From Candidatus Omnitrophota bacterium (GTDB lineage Bacteria > Omnitrophota > Gorgyraeia > Gygaellales > Profunditerraquicolaceae): 64,000 nt of DNA. A program made the position numbers and the translations under genes. The notes below the pieces were generated by a model that was not told where the DNA came from, searched no databases, and saw nothing but the letters and a program-made list of their open reading frames with translations. This document shows, one piece after another, positions 1,699 through 22,723 of this stretch (within the stretch, counting starts at the first letter, position 1; every line of letters begins with the position of its first letter). The stretch covers positions 2,180-66,179 of the forward strand of contig JAQTQQ010000004.1 in the NCBI GenBank assembly GCA_028712175.1, in the 5' to 3' direction.

Positions 1699-2907
1699 TT
1701 AAAGTTTGAGATGATGCCCCATTTTTTCTTTTTTTGTTTTTAAGTACCTGTAATTCTCGCTGTTTGGCTGAATCTCCAAAGGCAGGCGCTCTAAAACCTT
1801 AAGGCCATAGCCCTCTAAGCCAATAATCTTACGCGGATTATTAGTCAATAGCCTTATCCCCTTAACCCCTAAGTCTACAAGAATCTGGGCACCGATACCA
1901 TAATCACGCAAATCAACCTTATGGCCTAATGCCTCGTTAGCTTCTACCGTATCCATACCTTTATCCTGAAGTTTATATGCGCGGATCTTTTCAACTAAAC
2001 CAATTCCGCGCCCTTCTTGTTTCATATAAAGGATAACCCCTTTCTTTTCTGCGGCGATTATCTGCATGGCTTTCTCCAGTTGCCTGCCGCAATCACAACG
2101 CAATGAACCGAAGACATCTCCGGTTAAGCATTCAGAATGTACGCGCACCAATACCGATTCATCTTTCCAGCTGCCCATACACAAAACTATATGCGTCTGA
2201 TCAGAAGTCGTATCCCTATAGATGACTAATTTAAATTCTCCGAATTTTGTCGGCAGCTTAGTTTCAACTACTGCCTCAACTAATTTTTCGCTTCTGCGGC
2301 GGTATTCTATAAGGCTGGCAATACTGCAAATCTTTAATGAGTGTTTCTTTGCAAATTCAAGAAGATTCGCAAGGCGGGCCATACTGCCATCATCATTCAT
2401 AATCTCACAAATTACCCCCGCCGGATAACATCCTGCAAGACGCATTAAATCAAGACTTGCTTCAGTATGTCCTGCCCTAACCAAAACTCCGCCGCGCCGG
2501 CAGCGCAAAGGAAAAATATGCCCTGGGCGCAGGAGGTCTTCTGGTTTAGTATCTTGGCTAATTAAAATTTCAATTGTTCTAGCCCTATCGGCAGCAGAGA
2601 TACCCGTACTTATTCCGCGCGCCGCATCAACTGAAATCATCCATGCAGTCTTAAAAGGATCTTCTTTATGGGGCTGCAGGGTATTTTTAAGCATAGGATC
2701 AAGTTCCAGAAAACGCAAGCGCTCTTCTTCCATAGGAACACAAATAAGCCCGCGTCCAAATTTAGCCATAAAATTTATATCTTCGGGCCTGACGCCTGAA
2801 GCCGCCATAACCAGATCACCTTCATTCTCACGGTCCTCATCGTCAACGACAATTACCATTTTGCCGTTTTTTAAGTCTTCTACAATTTCTGGAATTGTGT
2901 TAAACAT
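1699..2907 (-). CDS. ribBA: Bifunctional 3,4-dihydroxy-2-butanone-4-phosphate synthase / GTP cyclohydrolase II
   Basis: DHBP synthase and GTP cyclohydrolase II motifs are present (CxxGxxxC ... [10 protein letters not shown]). The start was placed at the internal ATG (MFNTIPE), which has a GGAGAG SD. The longer ORF call would run into the riboswitch terminator. Confidence 0.9.
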
Positions 2908-2961
2908 GGCTCTCCTATACCCTCCGGGTGCATCCGCGCAGATCCCTAAAACGCAGGGTAT

Positions 2962-2993
2962 TAAAAAATAAGCCCGAAATAAACTCTTCGGGC
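2962..2993 (-). terminator. Intrinsic terminator hairpin of the FMN riboswitch expression platform
   Basis: On the minus strand the sequence gcccgaagagtttatttcgggc forms a 7-bp GC-rich stem. It is followed by TTATTTTTT, and lies between the aptamer and the ribBA start. Confidence 0.6.
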
Positions 2994-3039
2994 AATTTGC
3001 TATTTTCACCAGGAATCACCGGCGAATCCGCGGCTATTT

Positions 3040-3165
3040 ACAGCGGTAATCTTCTTCCATCTGGACTTTACACCCTAACCAACTTTAAAATGGGTGCCCG
3101 TTTTATTACGGAACCATCGGCCCTGGAATTTCACCAGATCTGTCCGCCATTGAATCAGTGGCGGA
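3040..3165 (-). ncRNA. FMN riboswitch (RFN element) aptamer
   Basis: The minus strand contains GGUGAAAUUCCAGGGCCGAUGGU ... AAAGUCCAGAUGGAAGAAG. This matches the conserved RFN cores (GGUGAAAUUCC; CCGxCGGU; AAAGUCUGGAUGGGAGAAGG) and has P1 pairing AUCUGG/CCAGAU. It lies upstream of ribBA. Confidence 0.75.
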
Positions 3166-3279
3166 CTCGCGGGCTTTTACAACTTAACCATATTTTTGGT
3201 TTATTGTGCTCTACCGCCGGTAAGGATTTACACCTTGCCCTGAAGATTAACTGAAATTATTTTACCAGAGAAACTAAAC

Positions 3280-20434: not shown

Positions 20435-22075
20435 TTACATCTTCTCAGGTTGGGCTATCCCTAACAACTCTAATCCGCAGGATAAAACAATTTTTGTACC
20501 TGTAATCAAGGCAACCCGGGCGCAAGTTAAAACATCACTCTGACCCAAAACACGGTGCAGATCATAAAACTTATGGAAACTTTCTGAAAGTTCCTGTAGA
20601 TATACCGTAAGCATGTAGGGATCGCAAGTAACCAAGCAAATATTAAGGACTGCCTCAAATTCAAGCATTTTCTTAATAAGGCCCAGCTCTTCTTTTTCTT
20701 TAAGCACAGAAAGGTCTAAACCTTCCATGCCTGCGGCAGGCGGACTGCTGCGTAATATACTGCAAATACGCGCATGCGCATACTGCACATAATATACGGG
20801 ATTTTCGGCACTCTGTTTTTTGGCTACTTCAAGGTCAAAATCCAAGTGGCTTGAAGTGCGGCGCATCAAAAAGAAAAACCTTGCGGCATCTTTTCCCACC
20901 TCATCTAAAACTTCCCGTAAAGTTATATACTGGCCGCGCCGGGTAGACATTTGCACTTCTTGGCCGTAGCGAAAAATAGTAGCTAATTGGACAATAACTA
21001 CGGACAAATCATCCTTATTATGCCCAAATGCCTCAATCGAAGCTTTAATACGGTTAATATACCCATGATGATCCGGGCCCCAAAGATTAATCAGCCAGCT
21101 GTAACCACGATCAAACTTGTCCTGATGATAAGCAATATCCGGAGCCAGGTATGTCTGACTTCCATCGCTCTTAATAATCACCCGGTCTTTATCGTCGCCA
21201 AATACGGTTGATTTAAACCAAAGCGCCCCATCCTGTTCATATAAGAATTCTTTTTGCTTTAATTGCTCAAATGCTTTCTCAACCTTGCCACTTTTAGCCA
21301 GCGCTTTTTGTGAATACCAACAATCAAATTTAACCCCAAAATCATCCAGCTCCTGTTTAATAATTTTAAGGATGTACCCGGAAGCAAAATCACCCAAATC
21401 TTCTTCTTTGATTCCCTTAGCTTGCGCTTCCTGGGCAATGTCTTTGATATAATCGCCCTGATAATAGTTCTCAGGAAACTCTGTCGTTTCACCTTGTAAT
21501 TCTTTAAGCCTAAGCTGGACTGACTTACCTAAAATATTTATCTGGTTACCCTCATCGTTTAAATAATATTCGCGCGAAACCTGAAAATTTAGAAAATCCA
21601 AGATACTGGCAAGACAATCACCAACCGCTGCCTGACGGGCATGGGCAACCGACAAAGAACCGGTAGGGTTAGCGCTGACAAATTCAATTAGAACCTTCCT
21701 GGTACCTCCTAAATCCGCCTTTAATGCCTCTTTGCCTACTGCAATTATCTTACGCAGTTTCTCATAAAAATAATCCTCTTTAAGATAAAAATTTATAAAA
21801 CCTGCCCCCTCTACTTTTACTTTAGTAACCAATTCTTTTAATCCTGTCTTAGCTATTTCCTTCTGGATAAACTCAACTAACCGGCTAGCAATGACCCTAG
21901 GCTGCTGTTTTAACTCTTTACTTAATTTTAAGGCAATATTAGTGGTAAAATCACCAAAACGCTTATCCGTAGGAAGATCCATTAAAATCGCTTCTTGGCC
22001 ATCCTTAAGGTAGCCTAAGTGCCTAAGAGCTGCGCCCACTAAATCAATAAGCTCTTTTGTAATATCGTTCGTCAT
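20435..22075 (-). CDS. argS: Arginyl-tRNA synthetase
   Basis: 546 aa with a class I ArgRS catalytic core and a DALR anticodon-binding domain. Confidence 0.92.
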   Translation of the reverse strand: MTNDITKELIDLVGAALRHLGYLKDGQEAILMDLPTDKRFGDFTTNIALKLSKELKQQPRVIASRLVEFIQKEIAKTGLKELVTKVKVEGAGFINFYLKEDYFYEKLRKIIAVGKEALKADLGGTRKVLIEFVSANPTGSLSVAHARQAAVGDCLASILDFLNFQVSREYYLNDEGNQINILGKSVQLRLKELQGETTEFPENYYQGDYIKDIAQEAQAKGIKEEDLGDFASGYILKIIKQELDDFGVKFDCWYSQKALAKSGKVEKAFEQLKQKEFLYEQDGALWFKSTVFGDDKDRVIIKSDGSQTYLAPDIAYHQDKFDRGYSWLINLWGPDHHGYINRIKASIEAFGHNKDDLSVVIVQLATIFRYGQEVQMSTRRGQYITLREVLDEVGKDAARFFFLMRRTSSHLDFDLEVAKKQSAENPVYYVQYAHARICSILRSSPPAAGMEGLDLSVLKEKEELGLIKKMLEFEAVLNICLVTCDPYMLTVYLQELSESFHKFYDLHRVLGQSDVLTCARVALITGTKIVLSCGLELLGIAQPEKM

Positions 22076-22114: not shown

Positions 22115-22471
22115 CTATTTTTTAGGAGTTCCCACTCTTACTCTTTTAGCATCGGACCAGAGCCCCTCTAAAGAATAAAACTCTCTCACAGGTTTATAAA
22201 ACGAATGGGCTATCACAGAAACATAATCAAGGGCTATCCACCCTGATTCGTCGTTCGGAGAAACCTTAGAGAGAGATTTTATTTTTTTTATTTCAAGGTC
22301 ATCCTTGATCGCCTGAGCTATCGCAGTAGCCTGCCTTAAAGAATTACCGCTTGCAATAACAAAATAATCGCAAAACCCGGCAACCTTGGAAACATCGAGA
22401 ATAACAACCTGCTCGGCTTTTTTAGACTTAGCAACCCAAGCAATGCGTTGCGCTAAAGTTTTCGAGTCTAT
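22115..22471 (-). CDS. rsfS: Ribosomal silencing factor RsfS (Iojap family). Has no ATG/GTG/TTG start, so an AUA start is proposed.
   Basis: The reverse translation reads IDSKTLAQRIAWVAKSKKAEQVVILDV...SGWIALDY...SLEGLW, a full-length RsfS with no Met anywhere. AGGAG sits 6 nt upstream of ATA, and an in-frame stop lies immediately upstream. Confidence 0.7.
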   Translation of the reverse strand: MDSKTLAQRIAWVAKSKKAEQVVILDVSKVAGFCDYFVIASGNSLRQATAIAQAIKDDLEIKKIKSLSKVSPNDESGWIALDYVSVIAHSFYKPVREFYSLEGLWSDAKRVRVGTPKK

Positions 22472-22498
22472 TTTCTACTCCTATCTAAAGAAGACCGT

Positions 22499-22648
22499 TT
22501 ATTTCTTTCCTAAGATCTTATACATTCCGGTTCCGCATTCCGGACACTTGCCTTTCATTGCCGCGCGGCCATTTTTCATAGTAACTTTCTGTTCATCCTT
22601 CATAGATTTCTTACCTTTACATTTTACGCAATATCCTGTTTCTGCCAT
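22499..22648 (-). CDS. 49-aa zinc-ribbon microprotein (CxxC...CxxC), conserved-hypothetical type
   Basis: MAETGYCVKCKGKKSMKDEQKVTMKNGRAAMKGKCPECGTGMYKILGKK. GGAGG lies 6 nt upstream of the ATG. It is missing from the ORF track because it is under 60 aa. Confidence 0.6.
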   Translation of the reverse strand: MAETGYCVKCKGKKSMKDEQKVTMKNGRAAMKGKCPECGTGMYKILGKK

Positions 22649-22723
22649 TTGATTCCTCCTTTTTATACCACAAGATCGTTCTGATTATAAATAATTTTAA
22701 CACAGGTTAATTTCGATGTCAAT

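What the first reader, a model, noticed from the sequence alone, without database searches (positions are those of the whole stretch)
22440..22500. rsfS has no canonical start codon and most likely initiates at AUA with a well-spaced SD
The RsfS reading frame is unmistakable (…VVILDV…SGWIALDY…SLEGLW) and is 119 codons long. It contains no ATG, GTG or TTG between the upstream in-frame TAG and the conserved N-terminus. The only plausible initiator is ATA at 22471-22469, with AGGAG exactly 6 nt upstream. AUA initiation is rare in bacteria. The alternative is a sequencing error changing ATG to ATA.
Basis: seen in the sequence. Interest (0 to 1): 0.55.

Follow-up and report, generated by a model that had tools for sequence, protein, structure and literature searches.

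The report
rsfS gene with conserved AUA start
The gene for the ribosome silencing factor RsfS in this Omnitrophota genome has no normal start codon and almost certainly starts at AUA behind a ribosome-binding site; the same arrangement in 56 related genomes rules out a sequencing error and points to a deliberately weak, probably regulated, start.

Summary
rsfS (22471..22115, minus strand, 118 aa) has an in-frame TAG two codons before ATA (22471-22469). AGGAG lies 6 nt upstream. There is no ATG, GTG or TTG until codon 87.

It is not an error. All 56 non-identical Omnitrophota orthologs (52-97% aa identity, independent assemblies) carry ATA (53) or ATC (3) at this position, and none has ATG. In 49 of them no canonical start lies between the upstream in-frame stop and this codon. 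47 have an SD match of at least 5 nt, mostly 6-10 nt upstream.

The codon aligns with the ATG/GTG/TTG starts of orthologs in other phyla. It gives the same residue numbering as solved RsfS structures. It sits at the minimum of predicted mRNA structure. The flanking genes start with ATG, and rsfS is the only such case among 62 ORFs in the window.

Near-cognate starts also appear in Verrucomicrobiota (ATA/ATC/ATT overlapping the upstream stop) and some Chloroflexota and Deltaproteobacteria-labelled loci (CTG). E. coli rsfS starts at TTG.

Best reading: SD-directed initiation at AUA. That this keeps RsfS low and sensitive to IF3 proofreading is inferred, not shown. It is a new member of a known kind (infC, ccpN). 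Public annotations give inconsistent N-termini.

The parts
22115..22471 (-). rsfS coding sequence read from ATA to the TAG stop (118 aa; the N-terminus is expected to be fMet)
   Evidence: Translation. PF02410 87.9 bits and TIGR00090 89.4 bits. Matches PDB RsfS chains in 1:1 residue register.
22469..22471 (-). Proposed start codon ATA (AUA)
   Evidence: ATA in 53 and ATC in 3 of 56 orthologs. Aligns with the ATG/GTG/TTG of orthologs in other phyla. Minimum of predicted local mRNA structure.
22478..22482 (-). Shine-Dalgarno AGGAG, with a 6-nt spacer to ATA
   Evidence: 47 of 56 orthologs have an SD match of at least 5 nt, with spacers mostly 6-10 nt. By the same match with a 4-12 nt spacer filter, only 17 of 59 window genes have one.
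22475..22477 (-). In-frame TAG two codons upstream of ATA; it closes the frame
   Evidence: A second in-frame TAG lies at 22481-22483. 23 of 56 orthologs have an in-frame stop within 5 codons upstream.
22442..22444 (-). ATT at codon 10: a rival near-cognate start, and the start used by NCBI in a relative
   Evidence: It has no SD in front of it. The aligned codon is GTT, GTA, GTC, GCG or GCA in 8 of 56 orthologs.
22499..22648 (-). Upstream 49-aa zinc-ribbon ORF (DUF5679, ATG start). Its TAA stop lies 27 nt before ATA. It is the conserved operon partner of rsfS.
   Evidence: Found directly upstream of rsfS in 54 of 55 orthologous loci.
22694..22722 (-). Promoter-like site TTGACA-17-TAAAAT (11 of 12 matches, TG extension) upstream of DUF5679. 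It is the likely promoter of a DUF5679-rsfS-argS unit.
   Evidence: This is a consensus match only.
20435..22075 (-). Downstream argS (ATG start), 39 nt after the rsfS stop
   Evidence: An argS-like gene follows rsfS in the related loci and mostly starts with ATG.
22264..22282 (-). Patch 1 of unusual synonymous-site conservation inside rsfS (ATAAAATCTCTCTCTAAGG; codons I64-K69)
   Evidence: Function unknown.
22166..22186 (-). Patch 2 of unusual synonymous-site conservation inside rsfS (AGAGAGTTTTATTCTTTAGAG; codons R96-E102)
   Evidence: Pairing with patch 1 is possible but not supported by covariation.

Best explanation
rsfS is a functional gene translated from the near-cognate start codon AUA at 22471-22469. 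The 30S subunit is placed by the AGGAG Shine-Dalgarno 6 nt upstream, and the initiator tRNA pairs with AUA despite a third-position mismatch, so the protein begins Met-Asp-Ser-Lys. The arrangement is an inherited, selectively maintained feature of rsfS across the Omnitrophota clade sampled here. This much follows from comparative sequence evidence. The next two points are inferred from what is known of near-cognate starts in E. coli and S. aureus. First, the weak start keeps RsfS synthesis low relative to its co-transcribed neighbours, which fits a protein that blocks 50S-30S joining and would be harmful in excess. Second, it makes RsfS output depend on start-codon proofreading by IF3 and on growth state, as with infC. 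Ribosomes that finish the DUF5679 ORF 27 nt upstream may add to initiation by re-initiating, but this is not required.
For: 1. No canonical start is available. An in-frame TAG lies two codons upstream, and the first ATG/GTG/TTG is at codon 87.
2. Conservation. 56 non-identical orthologs at 52-97% aa identity have ATA (53) or ATC (3) and never ATG, although ATA to ATG is a single transition. 49 of 56 have no canonical start between the upstream in-frame stop and this codon. 23 of 56 have a stop within 5 codons. One has TAA immediately before ATA.
3. SD. 47 of 56 have a match of at least 5 nt to TAAGGAGGT, with spacers mostly 6-10 nt. Only 17 of 59 window genes have such a match at a 4-12 nt spacer.
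4. Coding signature. It starts at this codon: A7 is 98% Ala using all four codons, and R9 uses four Arg codons, while positions -1 and -2 are not conserved.
5. Register. Orthologs in other phyla have ATG, GTG or TTG at exactly the aligned codon. Residue numbers match solved RsfS chains one to one (2o5a 5=5, 6sj5 13=13, E. coli chain 15=15).
6. mRNA structure. Predicted structure in 40-nt windows is lowest exactly at the codon (mean -2.2 kcal/mol, against -6 to -8 in most of the gene body).
7. Specificity. rsfS is the only such case among 62 window ORFs. DUF5679 starts with ATG in every aligned locus and argS in most of them.
8. Precedent. AUA starts with extended SDs were shown by Ribo-RET and reporters for S. 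aureus infC, ccpN and citZ, at about 10-30% of AUG (PMC13009471). An AUA mRNA is translated well in E. coli extracts and is depressed in extracts of cells grown in poor (M9) medium and slightly by added IF3; ppGpp inhibited all the non-AUG mRNAs tested (PMC5499595).
9. E. coli rsfS itself uses the weak start TTG.
Against: There is no direct evidence of initiation: no Ribo-seq, N-terminal peptide or toeprint. The codon-level argument is not unique to the start, because Ile64 is also ATA in 48 of 51 orthologs, inside a separate patch conserved at the nucleotide level. 7 of 56 orthologs do have an in-frame canonical codon further upstream, for example ATG two codons upstream in L105, so some lineages may use another start. 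In vivo initiation at AUA in E. coli has been reported at only about 1-2% of AUG (cited in PMC5499595). NCBI's pipeline places the start of a relative at ATT, codon 10. The regulatory part (IF3 sensing, dosage control) is inference only. infC is not in the window or the fetched loci, so its start codon in this lineage is unknown.
Confidence: 0.85

Rival explanations
1. Sequencing or assembly error: the true codon is ATG and position 22469 is miscalled.
For: A single A/G difference would create ATG. MAG assemblies do contain errors.
Against: All 56 non-identical orthologs from independent assemblies and samples show ATA (53) or ATC (3), and none shows ATG. These include a 97%-identical relative (L001).
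Confidence: 0.01
2. Translation starts at ATT, codon 10 (22444-22442), giving a 109-aa protein. NCBI annotates a relative this way (MAWVAKSKK...).
For: ATT is a permitted near-cognate start. NCBI's CDS in GCA_035402765.1 begins at this ATT.
Against: There is no SD in front of it. The aligned codon is not AUH in 8 of 56 orthologs (GTT, GTA, GTC, GCG, GCA). Codons 2-9 evolve as coding sequence. A start here would remove the first residues matched by the Pfam and TIGRFAM profiles (from residue 7-9) and by solved RsfS chains (from residue 5). The minimum of mRNA structure is at ATA, not 27 nt downstream.
Confidence: 0.05
3. AUA is used mainly by ribosomes that have just terminated on the upstream DUF5679 ORF (termination-reinitiation or 70S scanning). 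Expression of rsfS is then slaved to DUF5679 translation rather than to de novo SD-directed initiation.
For: DUF5679 lies directly upstream in 54 of 55 loci, and the gap is 12-33 nt in 38 of them (27 nt in the window). In Verrucomicrobiota the ATA/ATC/ATT of rsfS overlaps or abuts the upstream gene's stop (ATAA, ATAG, TAATC), the classic coupling geometry.
Against: 15 of 54 Omnitrophota loci have gaps of 44-212 nt and L162 has about 250 nt, yet they keep SD plus ATA. The strong SD is conserved, which coupling alone would not require. This rival overlaps with the main explanation and does not exclude it.
Confidence: 0.2
4. rsfS is fused to an upstream reading frame by stop-codon readthrough or programmed frameshifting, or it is a decaying pseudogene that is no longer translated.
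For: In the window the DUF5679 ORF happens to be in the same frame as rsfS.
Against: Three in-frame stops (TAA, TAG, TAG) separate the two ORFs in the window. The relative frame of the two genes is 0, 1 or 2 in roughly equal numbers across loci, and the gaps vary from -7 to 212 nt. The ORF is intact and under purifying selection in all 56 orthologs.
Confidence: 0.02

Closest known systems
infC (IF3) with its conserved AUU start (E. coli) or AUA start (S. aureus), autoregulated through IF3 proofreading of the start codon
   Same: A translation-factor gene whose near-cognate AUH start codon is conserved among relatives, is preceded by a good SD and is never replaced by AUG. AUA specifically is used by S. 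aureus infC (PMC13009471).
   Different: The gene is different: it encodes a 50S-binding anti-association factor, not IF3. Any regulation by IF3 would act in trans rather than as autoregulation. No experiment exists for rsfS.
S. aureus ccpN and citZ AUA starts and cvfC1 AUU start, directed by extended SD motifs (PMC13009471)
   Same: AUA plus a strong or extended SD. Conserved among relatives: ccpN and cvfC1 among staphylococci, citZ only within the NCTC 8325 lineage. The start lowers expression to about 10-30% of AUG and can make it depend on growth medium.
   Different: Those cases were proven by Ribo-RET and luciferase reporters, in metabolic or virulence genes and within one genus. Here the evidence is comparative only, but it spans a phylum-level clade.
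E. coli rsfS (ybeB), which starts with UUG
   Same: The same gene family using a weak start codon behind an SD-like GGGGG. Among more distant orthologs with canonical starts, TTG (16) and GTG (12) together outnumber ATG (20).
   Different: UUG is a canonical, fairly efficient start that gene finders recognise. AUA is a near-cognate that gene finders miss.
Translationally coupled gene pairs with ATGA or TAATG stop/start overlaps
   Same: In Verrucomicrobiota rsfS shows the analogous overlaps ATAA, ATAG and TAATC with the upstream gene.
   Different: In the window and most Omnitrophota there is a 12-33 nt spacer with its own SD, not an overlap.

Membership tests
RsfS / Iojap ribosome silencing factor (PF02410, TIGR00090) | Pfam PF02410 match above the gathering score over the whole domain | tested here: met
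   87.9 bits against 21.6. Residues 9-105 match profile positions 2-98 of 98.
RsfS / Iojap ribosome silencing factor (PF02410, TIGR00090) | NCBIfam TIGR00090 equivalog match above its cut-off | tested here: met
   89.4 bits against 56.9. Residues 7-105 match profile positions 2-99 of 99.
RsfS / Iojap ribosome silencing factor (PF02410, TIGR00090) | Sequence similarity to RsfS proteins solved alone or on the 50S subunit | tested here: met
   13 PDB sequences at E <= 0.001 (2o5a, 6sj5/6sj6, 4wcw, 9q40, the 105-residue E. coli-length chain of 7bl2, and human MALSU1), with residue numbering in register.
RsfS / Iojap ribosome silencing factor (PF02410, TIGR00090) | Binds uL14 on the 50S and blocks subunit joining | not testable with these tools
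   This is a biochemical property, known for E. coli, M. tuberculosis and S. aureus RsfS (PMC6101614).
Genes with a conserved near-cognate (AUH) start codon, infC type | No in-frame ATG/GTG/TTG that could give the conserved N-terminus | tested here: met
   TAG lies two codons upstream and the first canonical codon is at codon 87. The same holds in 49 of 56 orthologs.
Genes with a conserved near-cognate (AUH) start codon, infC type | Shine-Dalgarno at functional spacing from the near-cognate codon | tested here: met
   AGGAG with a 6-nt spacer. 47 of 56 orthologs have an SD of at least 5 nt, with spacers mostly 6-10 nt.
Genes with a conserved near-cognate (AUH) start codon, infC type | The near-cognate codon is conserved among orthologs and not replaced by AUG | tested here: met
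   ATA 53, ATC 3 and ATG 0 of 56. Caveat: Ile64 is also ATA in 48 of 51 orthologs.
Genes with a conserved near-cognate (AUH) start codon, infC type | The codon is homologous to the canonical start of orthologs elsewhere | tested here: met
   ATG, GTG or TTG sits at the aligned codon in Bacteroidota, Firmicutes and other loci. PDB numbering is in register.
Genes with a conserved near-cognate (AUH) start codon, infC type | Direct demonstration of initiation (Ribo-RET peak, toeprint or N-terminal peptide) | not testable with these tools
   No expression data are available for this uncultured lineage.
Genes with a conserved near-cognate (AUH) start codon, infC type | Expression responds to IF3 level or fidelity | not testable with these tools
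   Inference from E. coli and S. aureus only. infC is not in the window or the loci.
Translational coupling by termination-reinitiation | Stop of the upstream ORF overlaps or lies within a few nt of the start | tested here: inconclusive
   The window gap is 27 nt. Omnitrophota gaps run from -7 to 212 nt, with 38 of 54 at 12-33 nt. Verrucomicrobiota show true overlaps, ATAA and TAATC.
Readthrough or frameshift fusion with the upstream ORF | A fixed frame relation and an open frame between the two ORFs | tested here: not met
   Three in-frame stops lie between them in the window. All three relative frames occur among orthologs.
Sequencing error | The variant is private to this assembly and relatives carry ATG | tested here: not met
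   0 of 56 relatives carry ATG and 53 carry ATA.

The most novel reading that the evidence does not exclude
rsfS would be a second infC-like sentinel gene. In this reading a near-cognate start (AUA/AUC/AUU, or CUG in other lineages) has been maintained on the ribosome silencing factor across several phyla: Omnitrophota, Verrucomicrobiota, and some Chloroflexota/Dehalococcoidia and Deltaproteobacteria-labelled lineages. E. coli would show a milder form with UUG. Synthesis of the 50S anti-association factor would then be set by IF3 start-codon proofreading and initiator-tRNA availability. That would be a feedback link between initiation fidelity or capacity and ribosome silencing which has not been described.
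Probability: 0.3. Interest if true: 0.7.

Novelty: new member of a known kind. Interest (0 to 1): 0.58.

Why it matters
Three reasons.

1. Annotation. Standard gene finders either miss this gene (ORF listing does not report it) or truncate or extend it. Public proteins for near-identical orthologs range from 89 to 158 aa, with at least eight different N-termini. NCBI places the start of one relative at ATT, codon 10. A rule of SD plus ATA at the position aligned to the family N-terminus would fix an essentially universal translation gene across a phylum.

2. Biology. A near-cognate start kept for this long, one transition away from ATG and never converted, implies selection for weak or conditional translation of a factor that shuts ribosomes down. 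It adds a translation-apparatus gene to the very short list of conserved AUH starts (infC, pcnB, ccpN, cvfC1).

3. Testability. The IF3-RsfS link can be tested directly with reporters in E. coli. The same feature in Verrucomicrobiota may make it testable in cultured organisms.

Tried and rejected
- RNA structure at the start. Folding 22420-22520 gave z = -0.7, no better than shuffles. RNAalifold on 48 orthologs found essentially no consensus structure. So no riboswitch- or thermometer-like element is supported.
- Rfam. Nothing at or near rsfS. Two sub-threshold chance hits lie upstream of DUF5679. The only family above gathering score in the window is an FMN riboswitch far away.
- Codon-level argument. 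I expected ATA conservation to be unique to the start, but Ile64 is equally fixed as ATA. Codon context does not explain either case. I therefore rest the case on stops, SD, register and mRNA structure rather than on codon choice alone.
- Long-range stem between the two internal conserved patches. 84-91% of cells pair, but almost no pair changes on both sides and the result is not clearly above the shuffle and slide controls. Not supported.
- Genome-wide ATA usage. Rejected: 59 other ORFs start with ATG (47), GTG (7) or TTG (5).
- infC of this lineage, to see whether it also uses AUH.
- Literature. Searches combining rsfS or ribosome silencing factor with start-codon terms, and Omnitrophota with start codon, found no report of a non-canonical rsfS start. 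[quoted passage not shown]
- A second large protein search to see how RefSeq annotates Enterococcus or Verrucomicrobiota rsfS was considered and not run, as it was not worth the cost.

Full report
**1. The observation**

On the minus strand the RsfS frame reads TAA (22501-22499), ACG GTC TTC TTT AGA, TAG (22483-22481), GAG, TAG (22477-22475), AAA, ATA (22471-22469), GAC TCG AAA ACT TTA GCG CAA CGC ATT and so on, to TAG (22117-22115). The TAA is the stop of the upstream ORF.
- AGGAG lies at 22482-22478, 6 nt before ATA.
- From ATA the ORF has 118 sense codons. The first in-frame ATG/GTG/TTG is a GTG at codon 87, so the mechanical ORF list omits the gene.
- Translated from ATA, the product matches Pfam RsfS (87.9 bits, residues 9-105 = profile 2-98) and TIGR00090 (89.4 bits, residues 7-105). 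Any start much further downstream would therefore cut into the domain.
- ATG/GTG/TTG make up 5.5% of internal codons in this window's genes, so 86 codons without one has P of about 0.008.
- Among 62 stop-to-stop ORFs chosen across the window, rsfS is the only one with a long leader free of canonical starts that is not explained by overlap with the neighbouring gene. The others start with ATG (47), GTG (7) or TTG (5).
One correction: ATT at codon 10 (22444-22442) is a second near-cognate candidate.

**2. The organism and its relatives**

The closest proteins are annotated as Omnitrophota RsfS. Their predicted N-termini differ widely, from 89 to 158 aa: MAWVAK..., VVILDV..., MDVSK..., LEQKIESKK..., VLIDNKN.... 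That pattern suggests gene finders fail on this gene across the clade. I fetched 80 loci from one-genome-per-species contigs and 80 from metagenome contigs. I then examined the DNA at the codon aligned to the window's ATA.

**3. Conservation of the arrangement**

After removing duplicates, 56 distinct Omnitrophota-type orthologs remain, at 52-97% amino-acid identity and including the window. The counts below are unless marked.
- All 56 have ATA (53) or ATC (3) at this position. In four of them the codon is offset by one codon in the alignment.
- None has ATG, although ATA to ATG is a single transition.
- In 49 of 56 there is no ATG/GTG/TTG between the upstream in-frame stop and this codon.
- In 23 an in-frame stop lies within five codons. 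In L112 TAA sits immediately before ATA.
- 47 have a match of at least 5 nt to TAAGGAGGT, with spacers clustering at 6-10 nt.
- By the same match, with a 4-12 nt spacer filter, only 17 of 59 genes in the window have such an SD.
- In the same loci the flanking genes start normally. DUF5679 has ATG in all aligned cases and argS has ATG in most.
- The 97%-identical relative L001, from an independent assembly, also has ATA.
- Together these results rule out a sequencing error.

**4. Is ATA the start, rather than some other codon?**

Five independent lines point to it.
- *Coding signature.* It begins here. Ala7 is 98% conserved using all four codons and Arg9 uses four codons, whereas positions -1 and -2 are not conserved as amino acids.
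- *Alignment with other phyla.* Orthologs elsewhere carry a canonical start at exactly the aligned codon: GTG in Bacteroidota loci, ATG or TTG in several Firmicutes and others.
- *Register with solved structures.* Residue numbers coincide one to one with solved RsfS chains: B. halodurans 2o5a 5=5, S. aureus 6sj5 13=13, E. coli chain 15=15.
- *mRNA structure.* The mean predicted folding energy of 40-nt windows across the 56 orthologs is least stable exactly at this codon (-2.2 kcal/mol, against -6 to -8 in most of the gene body). That is the usual mark of an initiation region.
- *The rival ATT fails the same tests.* ATT at codon 10 has no SD, and the aligned codon is not AUH in 8 of 56 orthologs (GTT, GTA, GTC, GCG, GCA).

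NCBI's annotation of a relative (GCA_035402765.1) nevertheless starts the CDS at that ATT, nine codons downstream of AAGGAG-N6-ATA.

**5. A caution on codon choice**

Ile codon usage in the window is ATT 50%, ATC 23% and ATA 27%, and it does not depend on the following base.
- Conserved Ile10, Ile39, Ile51 and Ile55 show the usual mixture of codons.
- Ile64, however, is ATA in 48 of 51 orthologs.
- That codon lies in a separate patch of nucleotide-level conservation (section 9).
- ATA fixation alone is therefore not proof of a start codon. The case rests on the stops, the SD, the register and the mRNA structure.

**6. Other routes considered**

*Fusion with the upstream ORF.* The upstream ORF is a 49-aa zinc ribbon (DUF5679). 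It sits directly upstream of rsfS in 54 of 55 loci. The gap is 12-33 nt in 38 of them (27 nt in the window) but ranges up to 212 nt, and about 250 nt in L162. The two genes occur in all three relative frames. Readthrough or frameshift fusion is therefore excluded, and in the window three in-frame stops intervene.

*Re-initiation.* Ribosomes terminating on DUF5679 may contribute where the gap is short. This cannot be the general mechanism, because loci with long gaps keep SD plus ATA.

*RNA elements.* No significant local RNA structure, no Rfam family and no consensus structure was found at the start.

**7. Mechanism**

*Supported by comparison.* Initiation at AUA is SD-directed.

*Inferred from established knowledge.*
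- Initiator tRNA reads AUH codons with a third-position mismatch, so the N-terminus is fMet.
- IF3 discriminates against such codons, which is the basis of infC autoregulation.
- In S. aureus, AUA starts of infC, ccpN and citZ were mapped by Ribo-RET. They depend on extended SDs and give about 10-30% of AUG expression, varying with growth medium for ccpN (PMC13009471).
- In E. coli extracts an AUA mRNA is translated well. It is depressed in extracts of cells grown in poor (M9) medium and slightly by added IF3, and ppGpp inhibited all the non-AUG mRNAs tested. In vivo values of 1-2% of AUG are also cited (PMC5499595).
- RsfS binds the 50S subunit through uL14 and blocks 30S joining under starvation (PMC6101614).

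*The model.* A weak, condition-sensitive start fits a protein that must be kept scarce during growth. It would tie RsfS output to IF3 activity. This regulatory step is a hypothesis, not a result.

**8. Beyond this clade**

- *Verrucomicrobiota-type loci.* 22 loci have ATA, ATC or ATT at the aligned codon and no canonical start within 12 codons upstream. The codon overlaps or abuts the upstream gene's stop as ATAA, ATAG or TAATC, the counterparts of ATGA and TAATG.
- *Second Omnitrophota lineage.* L027, L032, L033, L043, L057 and L114 (and L058, a locus labelled Planctomycetia) have ATA, ATT or ATC five codons upstream, behind GAAAGGA-type SDs.
- *CTG cases.* Dehalococcoidia, Chloroflexota and Deltaproteobacteria-labelled loci have CTG at the aligned codon behind an SD. 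L156 also has CTG behind a GGGGG-type SD but carries a TTG within the scanned range.
- *Firmicutes.* An Enterococcus locus and a Vagococcus locus have ATA and ATT behind perfect SDs, exactly where a Ligilactobacillus ortholog has ATG.
- *Overall count.* Of 84 more distant orthologs with an aligned N-terminus, 36 lack a canonical start within -12 to +2 codons. The other 48 use ATG (20), TTG (16) or GTG (12).
- *E. coli.* K-12 rsfS starts with TTG.
- *Caveat.* The sample is biased towards relatives of the query, so these are leads, not frequencies. Even so, weak starts look like a recurrent property of rsfS.

**9. Side observation inside the gene**

Two short stretches are nearly invariant at synonymous sites in most orthologs.
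- Patch 1 is ATAAAA(T/C)CTCTCTCTAAGG (22282-22264).
- Patch 2 is AGAGAGTTTTATTCTTTAGAG (22186-22166).
- About ten sequences have lost both patches together.
- They could pair: AAAA-CUCUCU with AGAGAGUUUU, or CUCUAAGG with CUUUAGAG.
- Covariation is almost absent, RNAalifold does not predict either helix, and the controls are equivocal.
- Their meaning is unknown.

**10. Comparison with known cases and verdict**

The closest known cases are infC (AUU or AUA) and the S. aureus ccpN, citZ and cvfC1 starts. This is the same kind of feature in a gene for which I found no report. One arXiv list of genes preferring non-AUG starts could not be read.

I class it as a new member of a known kind. It has practical value for annotation, and it gives a testable link between initiation fidelity and ribosome silencing. 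My confidence that AUA is the start is about 0.85. My confidence in the IF3-sensing interpretation is about 0.3.

Noticed in passing
window 22499-22648 (-) and loci L001-L112: A 49-aa zinc-ribbon protein (DUF5679, no known function and no functional literature) lies directly upstream of rsfS in 54 of 55 Omnitrophota loci. At 71-100% identity it is more conserved than RsfS itself. This may indicate a functional partnership with the ribosome silencing factor.
   Followed up: partly
window 22264-22282 and 22166-22186 (-): Two patches inside rsfS are nearly invariant at synonymous sites across orthologs (ATAAAAyCTCTCTCTAAGG and AGAGAGTTTTATTCTTTAGAG). About ten sequences have lost both together. 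They are mutually complementary, but the stem is not supported by covariation or RNAalifold. Unexplained.
   Followed up: partly
L030, L038, L041, L049, L051, L052, L054, L055, L061, L062, L066, L116, L117, L119, L127, L130-L132, L135, L137, L139, L144 (codon aligned to the window's ATA): Verrucomicrobiota-type rsfS also lacks a canonical start. ATA, ATC or ATT at the aligned codon overlaps or abuts the upstream gene's stop as ATAA, ATAG or TAATC, the counterparts of ATGA and TAATG coupling overlaps.
   Followed up: partly
L028, L071, L074, L076, L077, L156; L027, L032, L033, L043, L057, L058, L114; L068, L072: Further candidate non-canonical rsfS starts. CTG sits behind an SD in Dehalococcoidia, Chloroflexota and Deltaproteobacteria-labelled loci; L156 also has an in-frame TTG nearby. 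AUH sits five codons upstream behind GAAAGGA in a second Omnitrophota lineage. ATA and ATT sit behind perfect SDs in an Enterococcus and a Vagococcus locus.
   Followed up: partly
L161 2535-2537 (E. coli K-12 NC_000913.3, rsfS b0637): E. coli rsfS starts with TTG behind GGGGGAAAAC. Among more distant orthologs with canonical starts, TTG (16) plus GTG (12) outnumber ATG (20), far from the usual figure of about 80% ATG. The sample is biased.
   Followed up: partly
L162 401-730 (GCA_035402765.1) and proteins P0001-P0054: Public annotations of this gene are inconsistent. NCBI starts one relative at ATT (codon 10). Other callers start at internal GTG, TTG or CTN codons, or extend upstream through non-coding sequence. 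Predicted lengths run from 89 to 158 aa for near-identical proteins.
   Followed up: yes
L162 160-365: In one relative the DUF5679-rsfS spacer is expanded to about 250 nt by tandem copies of a roughly 48-nt unit (ACACCCAACGCT..GGTATTGCGTTGGTGT..GTCTAGGTAGACAAG). The end of the last copy supplies part of the rsfS SD.
   Followed up: partly
L110, alignment A2 columns 241-270: One ortholog carries an in-frame 30-nt insertion in rsfS. It consists of a GC-rich perfect palindrome (CCCGCCCCTGCGCGCAGGGGCGGG) flanked by a GATTTA duplication, which looks like the footprint of a small mobile or hairpin element.
   Followed up: no
window 3045-3251 (-): FMN riboswitch (RF00050, 90.7 bits, E = 1.9e-19) upstream of the ORF at 1699-3015.
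   Followed up: no
window 22694-22722 (-): Near-consensus sigma-70-type promoter (TTGACA, 17 nt, TAAAAT, with TG extension) in front of DUF5679. It suggests a DUF5679-rsfS-argS transcription unit.
   Followed up: no
whole window: 58 of the 62 selected ORFs lie on the minus strand, and GC skew is negative throughout (-0.10 to -0.22). By the simple match used here, only 17 of 59 genes have an SD of at least 5 nt, so many genes in this genome appear to start without a strong SD.
   Followed up: no
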